A DNA stretch of 64,000 nt, taken from the NCBI GenBank assembly GCA_964464175.1, contig CAYXFD010000013.1:8391-72390 (forward strand), written 5' to 3'. The stretch comes from an uncultured Candidatus Cloacimonadota bacterium. GTDB taxonomy: Bacteria; Cloacimonadota; Cloacimonadia; Cloacimonadales; JAJBBL01. Position numbers and translations under genes: made by a program. Each line of letters opens with the position of its first letter. The stretch's first letter is position 1. Below, in pieces: positions 1-20,352 of this stretch. Under the pieces are notes generated by a model. That model was not told where the DNA came from, made no database searches, and saw only the letters and a list, made by a program, of their open reading frames with translations.

Positions 1-156
1 AGCAAAGCAAATATCAATTTTGAGATTATCAGGCATCTGACTCGAATATGGAGCCAAAGGGGGTTTATAAGTATCCGCCAATACGAAGCTTTATCTAATC
101 AAATCAATCTGATCGGGGCTCAGATAGGGGGTTGGAAAAAAAAAGATGGAAAATAA
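1..156 (+). CDS. avd: Accessory variability determinant (Avd-like four-helix-bundle protein), C-terminal fragment; 5' end outside window
   Basis: The frame-1 translation has no stop from base 1: SKANINFEIIRHLTRIWSQRGFISIRQYEALSNQINLIGAQIGGWKKKDGK*. The stop is at 154-156. The helical heptad-like sequence ends in the basic IGxxxGGWxK tail typical of Avd / 23S-rRNA-IVS family proteins. It ends 2 nt before the RT start codon. Confidence 0.65.
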   Translation, partial: SKANINFEIIRHLTRIWSQRGFISIRQYEALSNQINLIGAQIGGWKKKDGK

Positions 157-158
157 CG

Positions 159-1238
159 ATGCCTAAGAGGATTGGCTATCTTTACGAAAAGATTTATGAT
201 TGGAGCAATCTCTTAAACGCTTATCATAAAGCCGGAAGGTCAAAAAAAGAGAGACCGGATGTATTAGGCTTTGAGTTTGATTTAGAGAACCAATTGGTTC
301 TGATCCAAAGAGATTTGAAGGCTCAGGCTTACAGATTCGAGGGGTATCACAAATTCAATATTTATGAACCGAAAGAGCGAACTATCCATTGTGCTCCCTT
401 TAGAGATAGAGTAGTACATCACGCCATTAGCAATATCCTTAATCCGATCCTCGATCGCAGTATGATTCCGGACACTTATGCCTGCAGAAACAATAAAGGA
501 CTCCATCGTGCCTTAAAAAGGGCATTCTACTTCTACAGAAACTCTCGCTACTGCTACAAATTTGACGTCAGGAAGTTTTTCTACACAATTGATCATGAAA
601 TCTTGATGAGGAAAGTTTCCGGAAAAATCAAAGATCCGAAATTGTTGAATCTGCTGAGAGAGCTCCTTAATACATACGATAGCGGTATCGACTACTATTT
701 TCGTTTTGAACAAGATGATCTGATTGATATGATGAGGAACAGGGGTCTTCCCATAGGTAATCTAACAAGCCAAATCTTCGGAAACTTTTTCCTTTCTGAT
801 TTAGATCACTTTATCAAAGAGGATTTGAGACAGAGGTCTTATATACGTTATATGGATGATGCTTTAGTTTTTGCAGAAAACCTGGAAGAGCTTAAAACTG
901 CTAAATCTAAGATCACAAACAAATTAGCTGAAGACCGTCTGTTCATTCATCCCGATAAAAACATAATTAGCAATGTAAAAAGGGGGATCAATTTCTTAGG
1001 GTTCAGATTTTTTCAAGATCAGATCAGACTTCAGAATAAGAATCTCGTTAGATTCAAGAAAAAGCTAAAAAAAAGAGCACAACTGAACCTCTCTTATGCT
1101 GAGCATTTACTTAGTTTAAACGGACATTTGGGGTTTATTTCTGCCGGTAACACATTTAGGATTACGGAGATAGTATTGTCGGAAGTTGAGTTTAACCACA
1201 ACCAAAAAAAATACAGTTTTACTTTACAAAGGGTATGA
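159..1238 (+). CDS. DGR-type reverse transcriptase
   Basis: RT motifs are present: RTIHCAPFRDRVVHHAI, YKFDVRKFFYTIDHEIL, LPIGNLTSQIFGNFFLSDLD and SYIRYMDDALVF (YMDD catalytic box). LPIGNLTSQ is the I/LGxxxSQ motif-4 signature of DGR RTs. The N-terminus MPKRIGYLYEKIYDW is typical, so ATG 159 is preferred over the TTG at 132 given in the ORF track. Confidence 0.9.
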   Translation: MPKRIGYLYEKIYDWSNLLNAYHKAGRSKKERPDVLGFEFDLENQLVLIQRDLKAQAYRFEGYHKFNIYEPKERTIHCAPFRDRVVHHAISNILNPILDRSMIPDTYACRNNKGLHRALKRAFYFYRNSRYCYKFDVRKFFYTIDHEILMRKVSGKIKDPKLLNLLRELLNTYDSGIDYYFRFEQDDLIDMMRNRGLPIGNLTSQIFGNFFLSDLDHFIKEDLRQRSYIRYMDDALVFAENLEELKTAKSKITNKLAEDRLFIHPDKNIISNVKRGINFLGFRFFQDQIRLQNKNLVRFKKKLKKRAQLNLSYAEHLLSLNGHLGFISAGNTFRITEIVLSEVEFNHNQKKYSFTLQRV

Positions 1239-1380
1239 TACGAACATTAGAGCCGTTTTGCGTGGCGGGTCGTGGAACAACAACGACAACAACTGTCGTG
1301 TTGCCAACCGCAATAGGAACAATCGGTCAAACACCAACAACAACAACGGGTTTCGTGTTGCCAAGACTGTTTTTTGCCGG
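1225..1380 (+). repeat. DGR template repeat (TR), approximate boundaries; non-coding RNA template
   Basis: It starts at the RT stop codon. Read in the 1186 frame it gives YDTNIRAVLRGGSWNNNDNNCRVANRNRNNRSNTNNNNGFRVAKT, the C-terminal loop of an FGE-sulfatase/C-type-lectin fold. There are 12 AAC and 2 AAT codons within the 24 codons at 1276-1347, the adenine-rich pattern used by DGR mutagenic retrohoming. Exact ends cannot be set without the VR. Confidence 0.75.
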
Positions 1381-2807: not shown

Positions 2808-2856
2808 TGATTCGTAATCAGTAGGTCGGGGGTTCGAATCCCCCTTTTAGCTCCAG
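2808..2856 (+). pseudogene. tRNA-Thr(CGU)-like 3' fragment (anticodon loop to CCA) with no 5' half; putative att-site scar
   Basis: The sequence is tga-TTCGTAA-tca-gt-aggtc-GGGGG-TTCGAAT-CCCCC-ttttagc-t-cca. It has a 7-nt anticodon loop with U33 and A37 and anticodon CGT, an AGGTC variable loop, a perfect T-arm with a TTCGAAT loop, a 7-nt acceptor 3' strand, a discriminator and an encoded CCA. Pairing breaks down upstream of 2808, and no D-arm or 5' acceptor strand (gctaaaa) exists within 120 nt. Confidence 0.55.
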
Positions 2857-10021: not shown

Positions 10022-12820
10022 ATGAAGCATGTTTTTTTATTATCGTTTATCTTATTATTGACAGTAGTCTTGTTTGCAGAATCGGTTGATCATGATACCG
10101 CTCTAACTGCAGCAAGTAACTGGTTGAATCATCAAAACAATTTAAGGGGCAATTACCCGGATCTTTCAGTTAAGGACTTTTACATCCATCGACTTGAAGG
10201 TCAAATAATCTTTTATGTCTTTGATTTCGAACCGCAAGGTTTCGTTATGGTAGCCGGAAGCGATGCCTCAAGTCCAATTCTCGGTTACAGTGTATCGGGT
10301 TCGAGTAGTTTAGGTGATTTCCCTCCTAACGCTGCCTCATTCTTCTCGATCTATGAGAGAGGCATGTTGGATATCAATAATAATGAATTATCAAATGAGT
10401 ATTCTATAGGTGACTGGGAAGCTATTTTGACCGGGAACATTCCTTCTCCCCATCGCTCACGGGCAGTATCACCGCTGTTGTCAACTCAGTGGAATCAGAA
10501 CTATTCATGGAATACATCATGTCCTGCTGATGTCAACGGTCCGGGTGGTTACGTTTATGCCGGATGTCCTGCAGTAGCAGCGGCACAGGTAATGAACTAC
10601 TGGGAGCATCCGGACCAGGGCACCGGTTCACACTCTTATACTCATACCCAATACGGTTTACTCTCGGCAAATTTCGGAACTACTACCTATGATTGGTCAA
10701 GCATGTCTGATACCACTCCCACGAATTCAATCAGACAGCTGCTATTTCATCTTGGTGTTGCAACTGAGATGGACTACGGTCCTTATGGTTCAGGAGCTTA
10801 CTCTTCTGATGCCCGGGATGCTCTGGTAGATTTTTTTGATTATGATGCTTCAGCTTCATTAGAGTGGAAGTATAATTATTCTCACAACGAGTGGATATCG
10901 CTTCTCAAAGAACAGTTAGATAACAGTTACCCTTTATTCTATCATGGTTATGACTCAACTCATAGTTCCGGACATGCCTTTAATTGTGACGGCTATGATG
11001 CCAGTGATAATTTCCATTTCAATTGGGGTTGGAGTGGCAGTTATGACGGATATTTCAACCTCAATAGTCTTAATCCGGGAAGTCATGATTTCAGTTATTT
11101 ACAGGCAGCGATTGTTGATGTATATCCAGCATCGCAGCTTCCCGCTCCCCAGAACTTAACCGGCTATGCAGGCGGGGCAAAGGTATTTCTTTCCTGGTCA
11201 GCTCCCGCTTCCCGTTCCCTCCAGGGATATAACGTTTACCGTTTTGGGACCAAGATCAACCAGAGCCTGATAAACGGGTTGGAATACGAAGATACAGATG
11301 TTATGAGTCCCGGTATTTATCAGTATTATGTAACAGCAGTTTATGATTCGGGAGAATCCGGAGCTTCGAATACTGTTACCATGGAAACCTATAATCCTTT
11401 ATCCCTACCATTTTCGGAGAACTTCGATACAGTTAGTGAAATCCCTGTTTATTGGCATTTAGATGATCACATTGGCAACGGTCAGGTGTGGCAGGTAGGA
11501 ATTGTTTTCGGAGGGTTAGTGACAAGCGGTAATTATGCTTTTCTAAACAGCCATAATTACGGGTCAGGTAATACTCAGAATTGTGACCTGATAACTCCCG
11601 TTTTAGATCTGACGAATTACCGTAATATTCAGCTCTCTTTCAGCCACTATTTCAAACAGAAAGCGCTCTCTTCCACAGCAACTCTGTCTTATAGTTTGGA
11701 TAATGGTGCTTCCTGGACAGCGATAGACTCCTGGACAGACGATACTGCTAATCCGGATTTCTTTAGTTCTTTTATTTCTGCTGTAGATAAGGAATCTGAA
11801 GTCAGATTCAAATGGAATTATACCGGTACATGGGGTAATTACTGGTGTATAGATAATATTGATATAGTCGGGGAGGAATTAGTCATTCCGCCTGAAGGAA
11901 CAATGGTTGAAGGCTTTTTCTTTTCACATGACAATCCAGAATCGATCTCTTACGATCCCGAACCCGCAGATCCGCCGGATCCTCCGGAAGATTACAATAA
12001 TCTACTGTTAATTGGAGTTTCCGGTTCAGGACTAGTTCAGTTCACGATATCGGCAGATCCGCAAACATCTGGGTTTTACTATGTATCAGGAGGATGGTCG
12101 GCACCACATGCCTGTATTGATAACGAGATTGTCTTTAATATCGATTTTGGAAGAGGCGACGCTTATATCTTTCTTGGTGATGAAGATGATCCTCCGCTTC
12201 CGGTAGAGCTTTCTTCCTTCACTGCTAATATTACTGCCGATATGTTTGTGAACCTCGAATGGCGGGCAGAGTCAGAAACTAATATGCTTGGCTATAACGT
12301 GTTTCGCGCTTCGGAAGACAGTGTTACAGAAGCTGCGAAAGTAAATCCGGTTACGATTGAAGCCCATAATGAAAGTGTAGCAACTGACTATTATTATGTT
12401 GATCAGAATGTCTTTAGTGGTCAAGAATACTACTATTGGCTGGAGTTGATCGATCTCGATCTGACAACTAATTTCCATGGTCCTGTTTATGTCTTTGTGA
12501 ACGAAGATGAGGAATCAGGAACAACGCCGGTTCTTCTTGAAACCAGACTGATCGGAGCTTATCCCAATCCTTTCAATCCTGAAACCGCTGTAAGGTTCTC
12601 TGTCGCAGAAACTACAAAGGTATCTATCACAGTTTACAATCTGCTCGGACAAAAGATGCAGTCTCTTTTGATTAACGAACTCTACGATAAAGGAAGACAT
12701 TCAGTTGTCTGGAATGGAAGGGATGCCGATAATCAACCTGCTGCTTCCGGGATTTATTTCTACAGAATGAAAACCGATGACGGTTTTGAGGATTTCAAAA
12801 AAATGCTCTTGCTGAAGTAG
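10022..12820 (+). CDS. Secreted C10-family (streptopain-like) cysteine peptidase with T9SS-type C-terminal sorting domain
   Basis: It has a signal peptide and an N-terminal inhibitor-like prodomain. The catalytic Cys context is YVYAGCPAVAAAQVMNYWEHP and the His context is SSGHAFNCDGYD. The C-terminus is IGAYPNPFNPETAVRFSV...GIYFYRMKTDDGFEDFKKMLLLK. Confidence 0.8.
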   Translation: MKHVFLLSFILLLTVVLFAESVDHDTALTAASNWLNHQNNLRGNYPDLSVKDFYIHRLEGQIIFYVFDFEPQGFVMVAGSDASSPILGYSVSGSSSLGDFPPNAASFFSIYERGMLDINNNELSNEYSIGDWEAILTGNIPSPHRSRAVSPLLSTQWNQNYSWNTSCPADVNGPGGYVYAGCPAVAAAQVMNYWEHPDQGTGSHSYTHTQYGLLSANFGTTTYDWSSMSDTTPTNSIRQLLFHLGVATEMDYGPYGSGAYSSDARDALVDFFDYDASASLEWKYNYSHNEWISLLKEQLDNSYPLFYHGYDSTHSSGHAFNCDGYDASDNFHFNWGWSGSYDGYFNLNSLNPGSHDFSYLQAAIVDVYPASQLPAPQNLTGYAGGAKVFLSWSAPASRSLQGYNVYRFGTKINQSLINGLEYEDTDVMSPGIYQYYVTAVYDSGESGASNTVTMETYNPLSLPFSENFDTVSEIPVYWHLDDHIGNGQVWQVGIVFGGLVTSGNYAFLNSHNYGSGNTQNCDLITPVLDLTNYRNIQLSFSHYFKQKALSSTATLSYSLDNGASWTAIDSWTDDTANPDFFSSFISAVDKESEVRFKWNYTGTWGNYWCIDNIDIVGEELVIPPEGTMVEGFFFSHDNPESISYDPEPADPPDPPEDYNNLLLIGVSGSGLVQFTISADPQTSGFYYVSGGWSAPHACIDNEIVFNIDFGRGDAYIFLGDEDDPPLPVELSSFTANITADMFVNLEWRAESETNMLGYNVFRASEDSVTEAAKVNPVTIEAHNESVATDYYYVDQNVFSGQEYYYWLELIDLDLTTNFHGPVYVFVNEDEESGTTPVLLETRLIGAYPNPFNPETAVRFSVAETTKVSITVYNLLGQKMQSLLINELYDKGRHSVVWNGRDADNQPAASGIYFYRMKTDDGFEDFKKMLLLK

Positions 12821-15004: not shown

Positions 15005-15736
15005 ATGAAATGGTTTGTATTTCTTTCAATGCTTTTTTTCTTGACCGGGTCGCTGGCTGCCCTTACAGGTTTTGGAGATTCAACAATAAATGTTGAGTTG
15101 GATGAAACAATACCGGATGATCCTTTACCGGTTGAACTATCGTCATTCACAGCAGCTCTTACTTCTACACGGTTTATTGAGTTACGTTGGGTCTCAGAGG
15201 CTGAGTATAGTATGTTGGGCTATAATGTCTATCGTGGTATAAATGGGGATTTATCGGAAGCACTGAAGATTTCATTAGAGATTATTCCGGCATATAACTA
15301 CTCTTTTTCTACTAACTACAGCTTTGTTGATGAAGACGTAGTTGCGGGGAATGTCTTTTTTTACTGGCTGCAAGCTGTTAATCTCGATTTGACGAACAAG
15401 TATTTCGGTCCTTTATCTGTAATCATTGATGATCAGGAAGAAGATACTCCTTTGATCTTTATCACCTCATTAGGAAAAAACTATCCGAACCCTTTCAATC
15501 CCAACACAATTATTGAATACAGTATTAGAGAAGAGACCGAAGCAGTTTTGAGAATCTATAATGTACGGGGTCAGATTGTAAAGACACTTTTCTCAGGGGT
15601 AAGAGAAGCGGGAAATTACCGGGAAAAATGGAACAGTATTGACAGTCAGGGTAGAGAGGTTGCATCCGGAGTTTATTTATATCGGCTTACGACCGATCAC
15701 TATGACAGAATCAATAAGATGCTACTTGTCAAGTGA
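15005..15736 (+). CDS. Small secreted protein: LPVELSSFT module plus T9SS-type C-terminal sorting domain
   Basis: It has a signal peptide and the module DDPLPVELSSFTAALTSTRFIELRW...GYNVYR...FFYWLQAVNLDLT. The C-terminus is NYPNPFNPNTIIEYSI...GVYLYRLTTDHYDRINKMLLVK. An RBS (ggagga) is present. Confidence 0.75.
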   Translation: MKWFVFLSMLFFLTGSLAALTGFGDSTINVELDETIPDDPLPVELSSFTAALTSTRFIELRWVSEAEYSMLGYNVYRGINGDLSEALKISLEIIPAYNYSFSTNYSFVDEDVVAGNVFFYWLQAVNLDLTNKYFGPLSVIIDDQEEDTPLIFITSLGKNYPNPFNPNTIIEYSIREETEAVLRIYNVRGQIVKTLFSGVREAGNYREKWNSIDSQGREVASGVYLYRLTTDHYDRINKMLLVK

Positions 15737-15754: not shown

Positions 15755-18700
15755 ATGAAGCAGTTTCTAATATCGATCTTAGTCGTATTGTATATACCGA
15801 TTCTATTTGCTCAGACAATAGGGGATCCCCCTGTAGTTTCGAACGTAGTCATGTGGCAGAACCAGAACAACGGGTTGATTTATGTTACATATGATTTAAG
15901 TATTCAAGCGAACCCAGTTCCTTGTCATGTGACCCTGGTCATCTCAGGAGATGAAGGAGTGAGTTTCAAAATTCATCCCTTGCCTGAATTTATAGAAGGC
16001 GATTTCGGAGATTATGTAACAGTAGGAACAGGCAAACAGATAATCTGGGACATCTACCGGCAGTCTCAAGCATTAGGTTCTCAGGGTGTATTCGGTAATA
16101 CTTACCGTGCCCGGGTTATAGCCCGCCGCAATGATTTTAATCCCGTTAATCCAGCACCGGCAGGGTTTGTTTCTATCGAGGGTGGTACGTTTCACAATGG
16201 CACGTCCAATATAACGATCAGCAGTTTTTACATTGACCGTTATGAGGTTACCCAAGTCGAATATGAAGCAGTTATGGGTACGAATCCTTCGGATTTCAGC
16301 GGAAGCAGTAATCTCCAGCGTCCGGTGGAGCAGGTATCCTGGTTCAATGCTATCGAATACTGCAACCGAAGAAGTATGCAGGAAGGACTAATACCTTGCT
16401 ATAGTTACAGTACTTTTGGCACTAACCCTGATAACTGGCCAGTAGGATGGGATTTTTTGCCAAACCACACCAATGTAACCTGTAATTGGAACGTTAATGG
16501 GTACCGTTTGCCTACAGAAATGGAATGGATGTTTGTTGCTAAGGGAGGTAATCAGAGCCAGAACTACACCTACAGTGGCAGTAACACAATTGATTTAGTT
16601 GCGTGGTATTATGGTAACTCAGATATCGGTGATGGGCAAGGAAGGCGCTCTCACGAGATAGGCACCAAAACCCCAAACGAATTGGGTATCTATGACATGA
16701 GTGGAAATGTTTGGGAGTGGGTGTGGGATATGTTCAGTTATGATTATCCCAGTAACGATCAGACAAATCCGACGGGTCCAAGTGTTGAAGGAACACGTGT
16801 TGTGCGTGGTGGTTGTTGGAATCAAACAGACAATAATTGTACCAATTCAACTCGAGGTAATAGCAGCGCAACAATTGATTTCAACACTCACGGCTTTCGT
16901 ATTGTCAGAAGGTTTTCTATGGAAACGGTAGCGACCCCTGTATTTTTTCCTTCTCCTGGAACCTATGCCAGTTCTCAGATGGTCAGTATCAGTTGTTCCA
17001 CACCGGGAGCTACGATCTACTACACGACCAATGGTAGCGAGCCAAACACTAATTCCACTATCTATACTGGTGCGATAACGGTGAATTCGAATACCACTGT
17101 CAAAGCCAAAGCTTACAAAGCGTCATTTATTCCTTCGGATGTTGTCGAAGGTATCTACATCATCAATACTGCCCCTGCGAACATGATATTGATATCAGGC
17201 GGAACTTTTACCATGGGCAGAACTACCGGTACAGGAGGCGGCAATGAACTTCCGACGCACAGCATAACTCTGAACTCGTTTTACCTGGGAAAATATGAGA
17301 TTACTCAAGGAGAGTATGAAGCAATCTTGGGCTCTAATCCAGCCTCCGGTGCTGGTGAAGGAGAGGACTTTCCCGTTTATGAGGTGAGTTGGTATTCTGC
17401 TATCAAGTATTGCAATCTTCGCAGTATGGCTGAAGGTCTTGTTCCGGCATATACCATAGATGGCTCTACAGATCCTGGAGATTGGGGAGCAGTTCCTGAG
17501 ACCGGTAATGCCACCTGGGATGCAGTAACTTGTAACTGGAATGCCAATGGTTATCGCTTACCTACAGAAGCGGAATGGGAATATGCCGCCCGGGGAGCAG
17601 TCAACAATCCTGACTATCTCTACAGCGGATCGGATGACATTGACGATGTGGCATGGTTTGAAGGAAACAACAATCCGTGGGGAACAAAACAAATCGGTCT
17701 CAAAGATCCTAATGTATTAGGATTGCATGATCTGAGCGGAAACGTGATTGAATGGTGCTGGGATTGGTATTCCTACTCTTATTATAGTGAAAGCTCAGCA
17801 AATAATCCTACCGGACCTTCCACAGGCACTTACAGGATTGCCAGAGGTGGCGATTGGTCTCTGCCTGAAAACAGCAGCCGTGTTTCAGCTCGAGGTTTTG
17901 CCAATCCTGAGCATAGAAGTCTAAATTTTGGTTTCCGGGTTTGCTTTAATGCGCCAACAGTTGCCACACCTACTATCTTTCCAGTCGGTGGTACTTACTA
18001 CACCAGCCAAAGTGTAACCATCGACTGTTCCACAAATGGTGCTGCTATCTACTATTCCATCAACGGCAGCGATCCCGATGAAAACTCCACCCTTTATAAC
18101 GGGCCAATTTCTCTAAGTTCAGATACAATGCTTAAAGCGAAGGCCTATATGACAAACTGGGAACCGAGTGGCATAGCCAGTGCAGAATATACATTTGATA
18201 CCATACAGGATAGTCTCATATTAGTTCAAGGAGGCACTTTCCACAATGGAGTTTCCAATGTTACTCTCTCATCTTTTTTCATTGATAAATATGAAGTTAC
18301 TCAGTCAGAGTATTTGGCTGTGATGGGAACAAATCCCGGCAGCAATAACTCAGAGCATGGCGATCCGCTTAATCATCCGATCAACAATGTCACTTGGTTC
18401 AATGCTATCGAGTACTGTAACCGCCTGAGTATAATAGAAGGGTTGACTCCGGCATACAGCTACAGTAATTACGGTACTAATCCTGATGATTGGCCTTCCG
18501 GTTGGAATACAAGTAGTGGCAATCATACGAACGTATCCTGTGACTGGTCAGCGGATGGTTATTGTTTACCTACTGAGATGCAGTGGGAGTATGCTGCCCG
18601 TGGTGGGATACCTGCCCAGAATGCAGGGACATTTAACGATACTTATGCCGGAACTGATGTTCAGGGTACTGGAACGGGGCAGTTAGGGGATTATGCCTGG

Positions 18701-19027
18701 TATATAGCTAATGCAGGATTAGATTTACCTGGTGGTAGTACAGCTCCTGATTATGGTACTCATCCAGTTGGGACTAAATTACCTAATGAGTTAGGAATTT
18801 ATGATATGAGCGGCAATGTATGGAACTGGGTATGGGATATTCATGGTTCCTATCCCAGTGGTTCATATACAAATCCGACGGGTTCTGTAAGCGGTGCAGA
18901 GCGTGTGTGTCGCGGCGGCGGCAGTGACGCTCAAGCCGTTAACTGCACTGTTTCGAATCGTGGCGACTACTACGCTACGGGCTACAGTGTCAGCATTGGT
19001 TTCCGGATCAGCAGAAAAGTTCCTTAA
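15755..19027 (+). CDS. Triple FGE-sulfatase (SUMF1) / C-type-lectin-fold domain protein with two chitobiase/FN3-associated-type linkers
   Basis: Three copies of the FGE-domain motif set occur: Y.VTQ.EY, W(F/Y)(N/S)AI(E/K)YCN, NGYRLPTE.EWE, GNVWEW and GFR. The linkers are ATIYYTTNGSEPNTNSTIY...VKAKAY and AAIYYSINGSDPDENSTLY...LKAKAY. It has a signal peptide and a strong RBS (aaaggagg). It lies 19 nt after the preceding gene. Confidence 0.85.
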   Translation: MKQFLISILVVLYIPILFAQTIGDPPVVSNVVMWQNQNNGLIYVTYDLSIQANPVPCHVTLVISGDEGVSFKIHPLPEFIEGDFGDYVTVGTGKQIIWDIYRQSQALGSQGVFGNTYRARVIARRNDFNPVNPAPAGFVSIEGGTFHNGTSNITISSFYIDRYEVTQVEYEAVMGTNPSDFSGSSNLQRPVEQVSWFNAIEYCNRRSMQEGLIPCYSYSTFGTNPDNWPVGWDFLPNHTNVTCNWNVNGYRLPTEMEWMFVAKGGNQSQNYTYSGSNTIDLVAWYYGNSDIGDGQGRRSHEIGTKTPNELGIYDMSGNVWEWVWDMFSYDYPSNDQTNPTGPSVEGTRVVRGGCWNQTDNNCTNSTRGNSSATIDFNTHGFRIVRRFSMETVATPVFFPSPGTYASSQMVSISCSTPGATIYYTTNGSEPNTNSTIYTGAITVNSNTTVKAKAYKASFIPSDVVEGIYIINTAPANMILISGGTFTMGRTTGTGGGNELPTHSITLNSFYLGKYEITQGEYEAILGSNPASGAGEGEDFPVYEVSWYSAIKYCNLRSMAEGLVPAYTIDGSTDPGDWGAVPETGNATWDAVTCNWNANGYRLPTEAEWEYAARGAVNNPDYLYSGSDDIDDVAWFEGNNNPWGTKQIGLKDPNVLGLHDLSGNVIEWCWDWYSYSYYSESSANNPTGPSTGTYRIARGGDWSLPENSSRVSARGFANPEHRSLNFGFRVCFNAPTVATPTIFPVGGTYYTSQSVTIDCSTNGAAIYYSINGSDPDENSTLYNGPISLSSDTMLKAKAYMTNWEPSGIASAEYTFDTIQDSLILVQGGTFHNGVSNVTLSSFFIDKYEVTQSEYLAVMGTNPGSNNSEHGDPLNHPINNVTWFNAIEYCNRLSIIEGLTPAYSYSNYGTNPDDWPSGWNTSSGNHTNVSCDWSADGYCLPTEMQWEYAARGGIPAQNAGTFNDTYAGTDVQGTGTGQLGDYAWYIANAGLDLPGGSTAPDYGTHPVGTKLPNELGIYDMSGNVWNWVWDIHGSYPSGSYTNPTGSVSGAERVCRGGGSDAQAVNCTVSNRGDYYATGYSVSIGFRISRKVP

Positions 19028-19305: not shown

Positions 19306-20352
19306 TTACTTCAGCAGCAGCATTTTCCGGGTTTTCTTGGCACCAGAGGAGGATTCCAGAGCATAAATGTAAATACCTGAAGAGAAGCGGGCAGCATTCC
19401 AATGATAGGAATGAGAGCCTTCCCCGAATTGTTTTTGCAGTAATTTCTCTCCTTTCGGATTATAGATAGTGAGTACCCCGGTTTCTCCCCAATTTATCGA
19501 AAAAGCGATTGTTGTTGACGGGTTGAAAGGGTTCGGAGAGTTCTGTAATAATTGAGTTTCGGGAAAATCGATTGAGCTGTCGTCATCACTGCTGTTGGGA
19601 AACCAGATCAGTCCGGCAAATTCCGGGTAATCGATAAAGGGATTTCTGTTTTGCTGATATTGATAATAGATGACATCATTACGGTATAGTTCCCTGTCAT
19701 CAACCGGATCTTCTGTATGCCATTGATAGAGAGTTGACAATACTCCATGGTAAGGCTCATTATTGGGGGATGAGGGGGCATAATCAACAAGTTCCAGGTC
19801 AGGTTCGCCAAAGCCTCCTTCATATCTGACTGCCATGTAGAACATCATTCGGGCAACATCACCCTTGTCTTCAGGGCGCGGTTCCCAGGTATAGGTTGTG
19901 GTATAGCATCCTGTCGGACCGTCAGGATCTATGTATTCAATTCCGCCGTTATCGAAATCCTTGTTACCGCGAGCCGAATTGACCGAAATATCGGAAGCCC
20001 GGACATGATGCACATCTGTTCCGGCTCCCATAGAAGTTCCGAAATCACCGTGGGAAACAGCCCAGACATGTTCCCGGTTCCAACCGTTTCCGTTATTGTA
20101 TTCCTGCGCGGCATCCACCGACCAGCCTGTATAGATGAGAATAACGTTAGCGGGATTATCAGGGTCTCTGTCGGTAACCTTAAGGATATCCCATGTTTGT
20201 GAGTAGGAGAATTGAATATGATCTTTGATGATATGGTGAAGAGCTGATTTCAGTTCACCGCCGGTTAAGTTCTCTGTTCCGTTGTAATAACCTTCCGGGA
20301 TCTGAGCCTGCAACAGTGAACCGAGAAACAACAAAACAACAATATATTTCAC
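19306..20352 (-). CDS. Endonuclease I family extracellular nuclease with T9SS-type C-terminal sorting domain
   Basis: It has NREHVWAVSHGDFG and DVHHVRASDISVNSARGNKDF (Endonuclease I / extracellular RNase active-site motifs). The C-terminus is NSPNPFNPSTTIAFSI...GIYIYALESSSGAKKTRKMLLLK. It uses a GTG start with a gggagg RBS. Confidence 0.8.
   Translation of the reverse strand: MKYIVVLLFLGSLLQAQIPEGYYNGTENLTGGELKSALHHIIKDHIQFSYSQTWDILKVTDRDPDNPANVILIYTGWSVDAAQEYNNGNGWNREHVWAVSHGDFGTSMGAGTDVHHVRASDISVNSARGNKDFDNGGIEYIDPDGPTGCYTTTYTWEPRPEDKGDVARMMFYMAVRYEGGFGEPDLELVDYAPSSPNNEPYHGVLSTLYQWHTEDPVDDRELYRNDVIYYQYQQNRNPFIDYPEFAGLIWFPNSSDDDSSIDFPETQLLQNSPNPFNPSTTIAFSINWGETGVLTIYNPKGEKLLQKQFGEGSHSYHWNAARFSSGIYIYALESSSGAKKTRKMLLLK

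What the first reader, a model, noticed from the sequence alone, without database searches (positions are those of the whole stretch)
15755..19027. Triple FGE/C-type-lectin protein whose C-terminal loop is codon-for-codon colinear with the DGR template but fails the adenine-only test
Seen: the R...C...GFR loops of domain 1 (16805-16900, RGGCWNQTDNNCTNSTRGNSSATIDFNTHGFR) and domain 3 (18911-19006, RGGGSDAQAVNCTVSNRGDYYATGYSVSIGFR) are each exactly 32 codons. So is the TR unit 1261-1356, and the Cys is at codon 12 in all three. Domain 2 has the same 32-codon R-to-GFR span but no Cys at codon 12 and a conventional sequence. Domain 3 is at the extreme C-terminus, 7 codons before the stop, which is where VRs reside. 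At the 14 TR Asn positions it reads D A Q V N N G Y Y G S V S I, so 12 of 14 are changed, mostly to residues reachable from AAC. Against a direct relationship, only 6 of the 12 TR-AAC positions carry NNC codons in domain 3. TR bases that are not adenine also differ (for example tcg tgg versus ggc agt at codons 4-5, and cgt versus act at codon 13). Inference: this is a paralog of the DGR target family. It could be a relic or remote target of a diverged or second TR, or the undiversified ancestor type. Three lectin-fold heads in one polypeptide is itself an unusual architecture.
Basis: partly seen in the sequence, partly recalled or inferred. Interest (0 to 1): 0.65.

Follow-up and report, generated by a model that had tools for sequence, protein, structure and literature searches.

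The report
Static triple lectin-fold secreted protein
This is a secreted bacterial protein with three lectin-like binding heads that shares fold and loop length with the hypervariable targets of the nearby mutagenic retroelement, but the element does not rewrite it, so it is an ordinary fixed member of a large family.

Summary
ORF 15755-19027 encodes a 1090-aa signal-peptide protein with three FGE-sulfatase (C-type-lectin-fold) domains. Each ends in a 32-codon R..GFR loop, and D1, D3 and the TR have Cys at codon 12.

The colinearity is a family trait, not a link to this template. Of 254 loops in 125 homologues, 173 are 32 residues long. TvpA and all four TRs of this RT clade share the geometry.

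D1 and D3 differ from the TR at 30 and 31 of 64 non-adenine bases. The real targets lie just upstream of the window: two Ser/Thr-kinase-FGE proteins with 0 and 1 non-adenine mismatches. A strain with a rewritten kinase VR has an identical triple-FGE protein. D3 has no downstream hairpin like the one beside the kinase VR.

Multi-FGE architectures are common here.

Best reading: a static, non-catalytic, multivalent binding protein.

One nuance concerns D3 only. It shows NNC-codon excess (17/32, z 3.8), and its closest paralogue (P0027, another contig) carries clear VR signatures. D3 may therefore be a faded former VR.

A genome-wide search for a second TR could not be done, because my two large scans were wasted on poly-A matches.

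The parts
15755..19027 (+). Whole gene: 1090-aa secreted protein with three FGE-sulfatase domains
   Evidence: The ORF is intact. The AF2 model has pLDDT 86.8 and pTM 0.44, i.e. confident domains with an uncertain mutual arrangement.
15755..15814 (+). Signal peptide (MKQFLISILVVLYIPILFAQ). There is no lipobox Cys.
   Evidence: Read from the translation. The model shows helix 2-19 followed by a low-pLDDT linker. The cleavage site is inferred.
15815..16135 (+). N-terminal all-beta domain with no named family
   Evidence: No Pfam or NCBIfam hit. It recurs in 38 homologues at 35-45% identity. The model shows beta strands 27-125.
16160..16912 (+). FGE-sulfatase domain 1 (D1)
   Evidence: Pfam PF03781. 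It is 60-65% identical to domains of Cloacimonadota homologues.
16805..16900 (+). D1 loop, 32 codons (RGGCWNQTDNNCTNSTRGNSSATIDFNTHGFR)
   Evidence: It has 30/64 non-A mismatches to the TR. There is no NNC excess: 8/32 observed against 8.3 expected, z -0.13.
16949..17146 (+). CHB_HEX_C_1 / Fn3_assoc Ig-like spacer 1
   Evidence: Pfam PF13290 covers residues 399-464.
17177..17941 (+). FGE-sulfatase domain 2 (D2)
   Evidence: Pfam best stretch covers residues 475-729.
17843..17938 (+). D2 loop, 32 codons, Ser instead of Cys at codon 12
   Evidence: It has 33/64 non-A mismatches to the TR and no NNC excess, z -0.40.
17957..18190 (+). CHB_HEX_C_1 / Fn3_assoc Ig-like spacer 2
   Evidence: This is the second Pfam stretch. 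It is 54% identical to spacer 1.
18206..19012 (+). FGE-sulfatase domain 3 (D3), C-terminal
   Evidence: It matches TvpA (2y3c) at E 6.2e-30 across the whole domain, loop included. It is 71% aa and 79% nt identical to the C-terminal domain of P0027.
18911..19006 (+). D3 loop, 32 codons (RGGGSDAQAVNCTVSNRGDYYATGYSVSIGFR)
   Evidence: It has 31/64 non-A mismatches to the TR. NNC codons are 17/32 against 7.9 expected, z 3.84. It has 15/58 non-A mismatches to a template inferred from the P0027 loops. No inverted repeat lies within 180 nt downstream.
1..156 (+). 3' end of avd (context: the DGR in this window)
   Evidence: A 110-aa bAvd gene ends here in the longer contigs L007-L010.
159..1238 (+). 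DGR reverse transcriptase, 359 aa (context)
   Evidence: RVT_1 hit at E 2.4e-24. Relatives at 50-62% identity sit in Cloacimonadota DGR loci.
1251..1368 (+). Template repeat TR (context)
   Evidence: This 118-nt run is identical to the VR of the upstream kinase gene (L007:3421-3538) except at 21 of its 36 adenines.

Best explanation
The gene encodes a static, secreted, multivalent binding protein that the DGR in this window does not diversify.

**Architecture.** A Sec signal peptide is followed by a small beta domain. Then come three FGE-type C-type-lectin-fold modules, separated by Ig-like CHB_HEX_C_1 spacers, like beads on a string.

**Binding surface.** Each module ends in a fixed 32-residue loop, R-G-G-x-W-...-C12-[R/T]-V-...-R17-...-G-F-R. 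This loop corresponds to the ligand-binding surface that DGRs diversify in TvpA-type proteins.

**Specificity (inferred).** The three loops are different and unchanging. The protein therefore probably binds up to three fixed ligands, or one ligand multivalently, outside the cytoplasm of a Cloacimonadota-like bacterium.

**Not an enzyme.** It is not a formylglycine-generating enzyme.

**Relation to the TR.** The resemblance reflects common descent of the domain family. The 32-codon, Cys12 geometry is the family norm.

**Shown:** architecture, fold, lack of the adenine-only relationship, lack of the target hairpin, and invariance across the available assemblies.

**Inferred:** extracytoplasmic location, binding function, and the nature of the ligand (unknown).

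**Secondary historical inference, about 35-40% confidence.** D3 alone descends from a once-diversified VR, shared with the ancestor of paralogue P0027, and has since decayed.
For: **Not a VR of this TR**
- D1, D2 and D3 mismatch the TR at 30, 33 and 31 of 64 non-adenine bases.
- The true targets found just upstream of the window mismatch at 0 of 82 (K721) and at 1 plus a 3-nt insertion (K605).
- No sequence in the window relates to D1 or D3 by adenine-only differences. None does in 286 kb of related loci either.

**Geometry is generic**
- 173/254 loops in 125 homologues are 32 aa, and Cys12 is present in about 126/173.
- The TvpA loop is 32 aa with Cys12.
- The TRs of three other DGRs of this RT clade are 32 codons with Cys12.

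**No target cis-element**
- The K721 VR is followed by a 15-nt-arm hairpin.
- The motif GTGAAAT-N(5-35)-ATTTCAC is absent from the whole window.
- The D3 3' flank shows no similarity to target flanks (p 0.32 and 0.77).

**Invariance**
- The 90% cluster of the protein holds a single sequence. That sequence was seen on 23 contigs from JGI, ENA, Logan and NCBI.
- The K721 cluster includes a variant (P0123, seen only on one 77,433-bp NCBI contig, the length also listed as the longest contig for the RT and the triple-FGE protein) with 14 VR substitutions. All are at codons containing TR adenines and reachable by adenine changes.
- In related multi-FGE clusters the loops are mostly invariant while the rest of the protein varies, for example 0 loop differences against 19-31 elsewhere.

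**Fold and lack of catalysis**
- TvpA is the best sequence hit (E 6.2e-30) and the best fold hit (E 4.3e-24, TM 0.82).
- The position aligned to human FGE residue 336 is Ala in D3. The same loop position is Gln in D1 and Leu in D2.

**Architecture is common**
- 41 other homologue clusters have 3-7 loops.
- Source names point to Candidatus Cloacimonadota.
Against: - The rest of the genome was not scanned for a second TR, because both large-collection scans were wasted.
- All fetched contigs are 100% identical in DNA to the window. The '23 contigs' are therefore one clone. The evidence for invariance beside a changing VR rests on one variant strain.
- The D3 loop has an NNC-codon excess (z 3.84), and its closest paralogue looks like a real DGR target. 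A past or present DGR link for D3 is therefore not absurd.
- No ligand, localisation or expression data exist. The protein lacks the T9SS C-terminal domain that its neighbours carry, so its route to the surface is unknown.
Confidence: 0.8

Rival explanations
1. D3 is a fossil VR. The C-terminal domain was once diversified by a DGR with a template of the 'CTVSNR' type, shared with paralogue P0027. It lost its cis-elements or its template and has since drifted. This concerns history and is compatible with the protein being static today.
For: - The D3 loop has 17/32 NNC codons against 7.9 expected given its amino acids (p 3e-4, z 3.84). At the 15 family-variable positions 9 are NNC against 4.0 expected (p 0.006) and 14 are NNY. 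The NNC-excess peak in the D3 region coincides exactly with the R..GFR loop.
- D1 and D2 show no excess.
- The closest relative of D3 is the C-terminal domain of P0027 (71% aa, 79% nt). Both P0027 loops have 14/15 variable codons NNC (p<1e-4). They differ from each other at codon positions 1/2/3 = 13/11/3.
- The C-terminal P0027 loop is followed by the same hairpin stem as the K721 VR.
- D3 shares scaffold codons with the P0027 loops (GCC, TGC, GTT TCG, ACG).
Against: - A non-loop segment of the same gene (17996-18091, in spacer 2) is equally NNC-rich (z 4.03). Local codon heterogeneity can therefore produce such a signal.
- The D3 3' flank has no inverted repeat and no significant similarity to the P0027 or K721 flanks.
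- D3 differs from the inferred P0027 template at 15/58 non-A sites.
- The template for P0027 was never found, so its own status is inferred from codon signature and hairpin only.
Confidence: 0.35
2. D3 (or D1) is a currently active remote target of a second, unlinked template repeat elsewhere in the genome.
For: - Remote targets are documented for non-phage DGRs, with seven for Treponema (PMC5758913).
- D3 is at the extreme C-terminus, where VRs sit.
- D3 has NNC excess.
- A paralogue (P0027) appears to be a target whose template is not within 10 kb.
Against: - No candidate template was found in the window, in 286 kb of related loci or in viral contigs.
- D3 lacks the hairpin present at both confirmed or likely targets.
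- One third of D3's variable codons are not NNC, and Gln CAA cannot derive from AAC by adenine changes.
- The protein has a single sequence across all assemblies, including the strain whose kinase VR was rewritten.
- D1 is internal and shows no codon signal.
Confidence: 0.04
3. The protein is an enzyme or a secretion-machine part of the FGE superfamily, such as a formylglycine-generating enzyme, an EgtB/PvdO-like enzyme, or a PorK/GldK/GldJ-like T9SS component, rather than a binding protein.
For: - NCBIfam gives partial hits to GldK (186.8 bits), EgtB, PvdO and GldJ.
- Sources annotate the protein as 'formylglycine-generating enzyme required for sulfatase activity' or 'SUMF1/EgtB/PvdO family nonheme iron enzyme'.
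- T9SS cargo genes flank it.
Against: - All NCBIfam scores are far below the curated cut-offs: 186.8 against 350, 93.7 against 360, 93 against 500, and 80.2 against 458.
- The CxxxxC catalytic pair of FGE is absent from all three loops.
- There is no lipoprotein Cys after the signal peptide.
- TvpA outranks every enzyme by sequence and by fold.
Confidence: 0.04

Closest known systems
TvpA, Treponema denticola variable protein 1 (PDB 2Y3C), the archetypal FGE-type C-type-lectin DGR target
   Same: - It is the best solved relative of D3 by sequence (E 6.2e-30, aligned through the whole domain).
- It is also the best fold match for the model (E 4.3e-24, TM 0.82, rmsd 3.0 A).
- It has the same 32-residue R..GFR loop with Cys at position 12 and the same C-terminal placement.
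- It is non-catalytic (PMC5758913).
   Different: - TvpA has one domain and its loop is a VR with an adenine-only relationship to a TR.
- Here there are three domains, no such relationship, no downstream hairpin and no variants.
DGR target category 'b' of Wu et al. 2018 (CLec1 VR inside an FGE-sulfatase domain), which includes one target with three tandem FGE-sulfatase domains and one with a kinase domain
   Same: - Same domain family and the same tandem-FGE architecture.
- The kinase-FGE type is what this window's DGR actually diversifies: K721 and K605, just upstream of the window.
   Different: - In the published triple-FGE target all three domains appear diversified.
- Here none of the three loops matches the TR at non-adenine sites.
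Multi-FGE-sulfatase + CHB_HEX_C_1 proteins of Candidatus Cloacimonadota (e.g. P0002, P0006, P0044, P0064 clusters; annotated 'SUMF1/EgtB/PvdO family nonheme iron enzyme' or 'chitobiase/beta-hexosaminidase C-terminal domain-containing protein')
   Same: - Same domain vocabulary and order, with 41-65% identity per domain.
- 2-7 FGE modules per protein.
- Loops are mostly invariant within 90% clusters.
- Many share a conserved C-terminal ending just after GFR.
   Different: - No orthologue above about 50% identity over the full length exists in the collection.
- The exact combination (N-terminal beta domain, then FGE-spacer-FGE-spacer-FGE in 1090 aa) is specific to this organism.
Formylglycine-generating enzyme (SUMF1/FGE) and PorK/GldK
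   Same: Same superfamily fold.
   Different: - The catalytic Cys pair is absent.
- Scores are below the family cut-offs.
- There is no lipobox.

Membership tests
DGR variable region (target of the TR at 1251-1368) | VR differs from the TR only at positions where the TR has adenine | tested here: not met
   D1, D2 and D3 have 30, 33 and 31 mismatches at 64 non-A template bases. The positive controls K721 and K605 have 0 and 1.
DGR variable region (target of the TR at 1251-1368) | Target cis-elements at the 3' end of the VR: TR-identical IMH-like end plus a downstream hairpin/cruciform | tested here: not met
   - K721 has a TR-identical 3' end and a hairpin with 15-nt arms.
- There is no inverted repeat within 180 nt of D3 or D1.
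- The hairpin motif is absent from the whole window.
DGR variable region (target of the TR at 1251-1368) | VR lies at the C-terminus of a C-type-lectin/FGE fold | tested here: met
   This is met for D3 only, which ends 6 codons before the stop. D1 and D2 are internal.
DGR variable region (any TR, including an unseen one) | Variable codons carry the AAY-derived signature (NNC/NNT), with differences confined to codon positions 1-2 | tested here: inconclusive
   - D3 has 9/15 NNC against 4.0 expected (p 0.006).
- D1 has 5/15 and D2 has 3/15, so neither shows a signal.
- The P0027 loops show what a full signature looks like, with 14/15 NNC.
- An unrelated segment of the gene is equally NNC-rich.
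DGR variable region (any TR, including an unseen one) | A cognate TR exists somewhere in the genome | not testable with these tools
   - None was found in the window, in 286 kb of loci, or in viral contigs.
DGR variable region (any TR, including an unseen one) | Population-level hypervariability of the loop | tested here: inconclusive
   - There is one sequence in the 90% cluster across 23 contigs and several sources.
- It is unchanged in the strain whose K721 VR differs at 14 residues.
- However, the contigs are clonal and no read data are available.
FGE-sulfatase domain family (PF03781; FGE-type C-type-lectin fold) | Significant match to the Pfam model and the fold | tested here: met
   There are three stretches, totalling 406 bits against a cut-off of 23.3. 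The model matches TvpA and FGE structures.
Formylglycine-generating enzyme (catalytic FGE/SUMF1) | Catalytic Cys pair (human Cys336/Cys341, CxxxxC) in the C-terminal loop | tested here: not met
   - Loop position 7, which aligns to residue 336 of 2AFT, is Gln in D1, Leu in D2 and Ala in D3.
- D2 has no Cys in the loop at all.
- The identity of the catalytic residues comes from established knowledge of FGE.
PorK/GldK, GldJ (T9SS lipoproteins of the FGE fold) | Score above the NCBIfam equivalog cut-off; lipoprotein signal | tested here: not met
   GldK scores 186.8 bits against 350, and GldJ scores 80.2 against 458.2. There is no Cys after the signal peptide.
T9SS cargo (type A C-terminal sorting domain) | Por_Secre_tail / TIGR04183 domain at the C-terminus | tested here: not met
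   This protein has no such hit. Both neighbours (15005-15736 and 19306-20352) have one.

The most novel reading that the evidence does not exclude
The DGR of this organism may serve a wider network than the two adjacent kinase genes. In this reading an unlinked second template diversifies secreted multi-lectin proteins. These would include P0027, whose two loops carry a full NNC signature and whose 3' flank carries the same hairpin as the kinase VR. They would also include D3 of this protein. One retroelement would then tune both intracellular signalling receptors and surface binding proteins.
Probability: 0.05. Interest if true: 0.6.

Novelty: new member of a known kind. Interest (0 to 1): 0.2.

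Why it matters
As it stands, the result is mainly a caution. Equal loop length and a shared Cys position between a TR and an FGE-sulfatase domain do not indicate a DGR relationship, because that geometry is the default of the family. The adenine-only test and the 3' hairpin are what discriminate.

The useful by-products lie outside the finding:
- The real targets of this DGR are two Ser/Thr kinases with FGE sensor domains.
- A paralogue on another contig looks like an orphan double-VR target.

If the faded NNC signature in D3 is real, the protein would be an example of how DGR targets retire into fixed-specificity binding modules. That would be of modest interest for the evolution of these families.

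Tried and rejected
1. **Genome-wide search for a second TR (wasted).** I turned D3 and D1 into degenerate patterns (C->M, G->R, T->W). The positive control on held loci worked. This was my design error, because every code includes A. Both scans are capped at one, so the test could not be repeated. Corrected patterns with fixed third positions were run on viral contigs only and found nothing, not even the locus itself. That result is uninformative.

2. **Invariance in 23 contigs as evidence against diversification (downgraded).** All contigs are 100% identical in DNA to the window, and the true VR is also identical among them. Only the variant listed on the 77,433-bp NCBI contig is informative.

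3. **Hunt for the template of the P0027 loops (not found).**
   - Nothing within 10 kb of P0027.
   - Nothing in viral contigs.
   - Three related RT loci (P0215, P0213, P0214) come from other organisms. They carry CRVANR-type TRs that do not fit.
   - P0093, which has the same loop scaffold, has no RT nearby and no NNC signature.

4. **Apparent remnant of the target hairpin downstream of D3 (rejected).** It appeared in a MAFFT alignment. Local alignment against shuffles gives p 0.32 and 0.77.

5. **Conserved gene pair with the upstream 243-aa T9SS protein (rejected).** The upstream neighbours of P0093 and P0027 are unrelated to it.

6. **tRNA and Rfam scans of the window.** Nothing reached threshold.


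Full report
**What is there**

ORF 15755-19027 (+) is intact and encodes 1090 aa. It starts with a typical signal peptide, MKQFLISILVVLYIPILFAQ, with no lipobox Cys. A beta domain of about 110 aa follows; it has no named family but recurs in 38 homologues. Then come three PF03781 FGE-sulfatase domains (total E 9.7e-122), separated by two CHB_HEX_C_1/Fn3_assoc Ig-like modules.

An AlphaFold2 model built on 40 homologues has mean pLDDT 86.8 but pTM 0.44. The domains are confident and their mutual arrangement is not, which suggests beads on a string. The three loops are predicted with pLDDT above 90.

**Check of the observation**

- D1 (16805-16900), D2 (17843-17938), D3 (18911-19006) and the TR unit (1261-1356) are each 32 codons from Arg to Gly-Phe-Arg.
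- Cys is at codon 12 in the TR, D1 and D3, and Ser in D2.
- D3 reads D A Q V N N G Y Y G S V S I at the 14 TR Asn positions.
- Six of the 12 TR-AAC positions are NNC in D3.
- Non-adenine template bases differ.

Quantitatively, D1, D2 and D3 mismatch the TR at 30, 33 and 31 of 64 non-adenine bases, and at 13, 21 and 21 of 32 adenines. Overall identity is 44-55%.

**Is the colinearity meaningful?**

No, it is the family default.
- Among 125 homologous proteins I extracted 254 R-G-G...G-F-R loops. Of these, 173 are exactly 32 residues. Within those, position 12 is Cys in about 126, position 17 is Arg in 166 and position 5 is Trp in 117.
- The VR loop of TvpA (PDB 2Y3C) is also 32 residues with Cys12.
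- Three further DGRs with RTs 61% identical to this one have TR units of 32 codons with Cys12. They read RGGSWNNNDNNCRVANR....
- D1 and D3 belong to a different loop subtype, C-T-[V/N]-S-x-R....A-T, from the TR's C-R-V-A-N-R....R-S.

**The real targets of this DGR**

The window starts inside avd. It contains the RT (159-1238) and the TR (1251-1368). No VR of the TR exists in the window.

Longer contigs carrying the identical RT show two Ser/Thr-kinase genes immediately upstream of avd. Each ends in an FGE-sulfatase domain.
- **K721** (721 aa, Pkinase-PASTA-FGE) has a VR at L007:3421-3538. It differs from the TR at 21 of 36 adenines and at 0 other bases.
- **K605** (605 aa) aligns to the TR with 21 adenine-site changes, 1 non-adenine change and 3 inserted bases.

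These positive controls make the failure of D1 and D3 unambiguous.

**Target cis-elements**

The K721 VR is followed by a strong hairpin, TTCACCCTGTGAAAT/ATTTCACGGGGTGAA (-32 kcal/mol with RNA parameters). The motif GTGAAAT-N(5-35)-ATTTCAC does not occur anywhere in the 64-kb window. No inverted repeat of 8 nt or more lies within 180 nt downstream of D3 or D1.

A MAFFT alignment suggested a hairpin remnant after D3. Local alignment against dinucleotide shuffles gives p 0.32 and 0.77, so I reject it.

**Variation between assemblies**

The exact 1090-aa sequence sits on 23 contigs from several JGI, ENA and Logan samples and in an NCBI assembly. Its 90%-identity cluster has one member.

By itself this is weak evidence. 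All fetched contigs are 100% identical in DNA to the window, and the K721 VR is also identical among them.

The informative comparison is with the variants found on a 77,433-bp NCBI contig, the length also listed as the longest contig for the RT and the triple-FGE protein. There K721 (P0123) has 14 substitutions in the VR. All are at codons containing TR adenines and reachable by adenine changes. It also has 22 substitutions elsewhere, and K605 (P0125) has 10. The triple-FGE protein and the RT have no variant form anywhere in the collection.

In 90% clusters of related multi-FGE proteins the loops are usually invariant while the scaffold varies. Examples are the P0044 cluster, with 0 loop differences against 19-31 elsewhere, and the P0064 cluster, with 0 against up to 90. 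This is the opposite of DGR behaviour.

**Architecture**

In this family that is not so: 25 homologue clusters have 3 loops, 11 have 4, and 6 have 5-7. The set is biased towards multi-domain hits. Source names place them in Candidatus Cloacimonadota, Cloacimonadaceae and Syntrophosphaera.

Wu et al. 2018 (PMC5758913, read) report FGE-sulfatase CLec1 proteins as the largest DGR target class. That class includes one target with three tandem FGE domains, one with a kinase domain, and remote targets for Treponema.

**What it is and how it probably works**

TvpA is the best solved relative of D3 by sequence (E 6.2e-30, aligned through the loop). It is also the best fold match for the model (Foldseek E 4.3e-24, TM 0.82, rmsd 3.0 A), ahead of true FGEs at TM 0.62-0.70.

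The protein is not a catalytic FGE. The loop position aligned to human residue 336 is Ala in D3, Gln in D1 and Leu in D2, so the CxxxxC pair is missing (the identity of the catalytic pair is established knowledge). NCBIfam scores for GldK, GldJ, EgtB and PvdO are far below the cut-offs. The protein has no T9SS C-terminal domain, although both flanking genes have one.

I therefore read it as a secreted, non-catalytic, multivalent binding protein with three fixed, different binding loops. The ligand and the final location are unknown and inferred only by analogy with TvpA.

**A nuance for D3**

Conditioning on amino acid and on the window's codon usage, the D3 loop has 17 NNC codons where 7.9 are expected (z 3.84). 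In the D3 region the NNC-excess peak coincides exactly with R..GFR. D1 and D2 are at z -0.13 and -0.40.

The closest relative of D3 (71% aa, 79% nt) is the C-terminal domain of P0027. This is a 1718-aa protein on a different contig of one of the same samples.
- Both P0027 loops have 14 of 15 variable codons NNC (p<1e-4).
- They share their scaffold codons and differ from each other at codon positions 1/2/3 = 13/11/3.
- The C-terminal loop is followed by the same hairpin stem as the K721 VR. Their flanks are significantly similar (0 of 1000 shuffles reach the score).

P0027 therefore looks like a genuine DGR target whose template I could not find.

D3 differs from a template inferred from the two P0027 loops at 15 of 58 non-adenine sites. 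That is about what the 21% nucleotide divergence of the domains predicts. So D3 is not kept in register with that template.

Taken together, this is compatible with D3 being a faded former VR. A segment of spacer 2 (17996-18091) is just as NNC-rich (z 4.03), so I give the idea only about 35-40%.

**What I could not do**

The decisive genome-wide scan for a second TR failed through my own pattern design. No read-level data are accessible. Both remain the tests that could overturn the verdict.

**Verdict**

The protein is a paralogue of the target family and not a target of this TR.
- The colinearity and the triple architecture are ordinary.
- The protein is a new member of a known kind.
- Interest is low (0.2).
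- There is a small residual chance (about 5%) that D3 belongs to a wider, unlinked DGR target network.

Noticed in passing
L007:1382-3547 (VR L007:3421-3538) and L008:3863-5680 (VR about L008:5551-5671); both lie immediately upstream of window position 1: The real targets of the DGR in this window are two paralogous Ser/Thr protein kinases with C-terminal FGE-sulfatase domains. K721 also has a PASTA domain. FHA, PP2C and FHA/zinc-ribbon genes sit around them, so this is a signalling cassette. The K605 VR carries 3 inserted bases relative to the TR and lacks the downstream hairpin.
   Followed up: yes
L251:10001-15157 (P0027); loops at L251:13925-14020 and 15041-15136; hairpin at L251:15165-15197: A 1718-aa multi-FGE paralogue lies on another contig of sample ERZ27252301. 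Two of its loops have 14/15 NNC variable codons and differ from each other almost only at codon positions 1-2. Its 3' flank carries the same hairpin stem (CCCNGTGAAAT/ATTTCACGGGG) as the kinase VR. No RT or template lies within 10 kb. It looks like an orphan, double-VR remote target.
   Followed up: partly
P0123 versus P0121 (K721 variants), residues 518-667: Besides 14 VR changes, the variant listed on the 77,433-bp NCBI contig has 22 substitutions in the FGE domain upstream of the TR-homologous stretch. The RT and the triple-FGE protein have no variant form. Gene conversion between paralogues or a mixed assembly are possible causes. This is unexplained.
   Followed up: no
window 17996-18091: A 32-codon segment of the second CHB_HEX_C_1 spacer has 19 NNC codons where 9.0 are expected (z 4.03). 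This is the strongest codon-composition outlier in the gene, and it is not in an FGE loop. It is unexplained and weakens the D3 codon argument.
   Followed up: no
L007:3545-3580, L008:5685-5715, L255:9530-9565, L251:15200-15225: Short TTACCC(T)TTT repeats recur downstream of the VRs in three DGR loci of this RT clade and after the P0027 hairpin. They could be a clade-specific target-flank element.
   Followed up: no
window 2814-2855: An isolated T-arm-like fragment (CGGGGGTTCGAATCCCCC) lies about 200 nt downstream of the DGR cassette. It matches the 3' end of the tmRNA/tRNA models only weakly (13.7 bits), and ARAGORN calls no gene. It may be an attachment-site remnant.
   Followed up: partly
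window 18563-18583 and 18911-18925: D3 departs from two near-invariant family residues. It has Cys for Arg in the GYRLPTE motif, and Ser for the aromatic at loop position 5 (Trp, Phe or Tyr in 157 of 173 loops).
   Followed up: no
window 10022-12820, 15005-15736, 19306-20352: Several neighbouring genes carry T9SS type-A sorting domains: a C10 peptidase, a 243-aa protein 18 nt upstream of the triple-FGE gene, and an Endonuclease_1 protein on the opposite strand. The triple-FGE protein itself has none.
   Followed up: partly
P0112 versus P0166 (639 aa), residues 354-385: Within one 90% cluster of a related FGE protein, one member differs at 14 of 32 loop residues against 17 elsewhere. It is a candidate diversified internal loop in another organism.
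   Followed up: no
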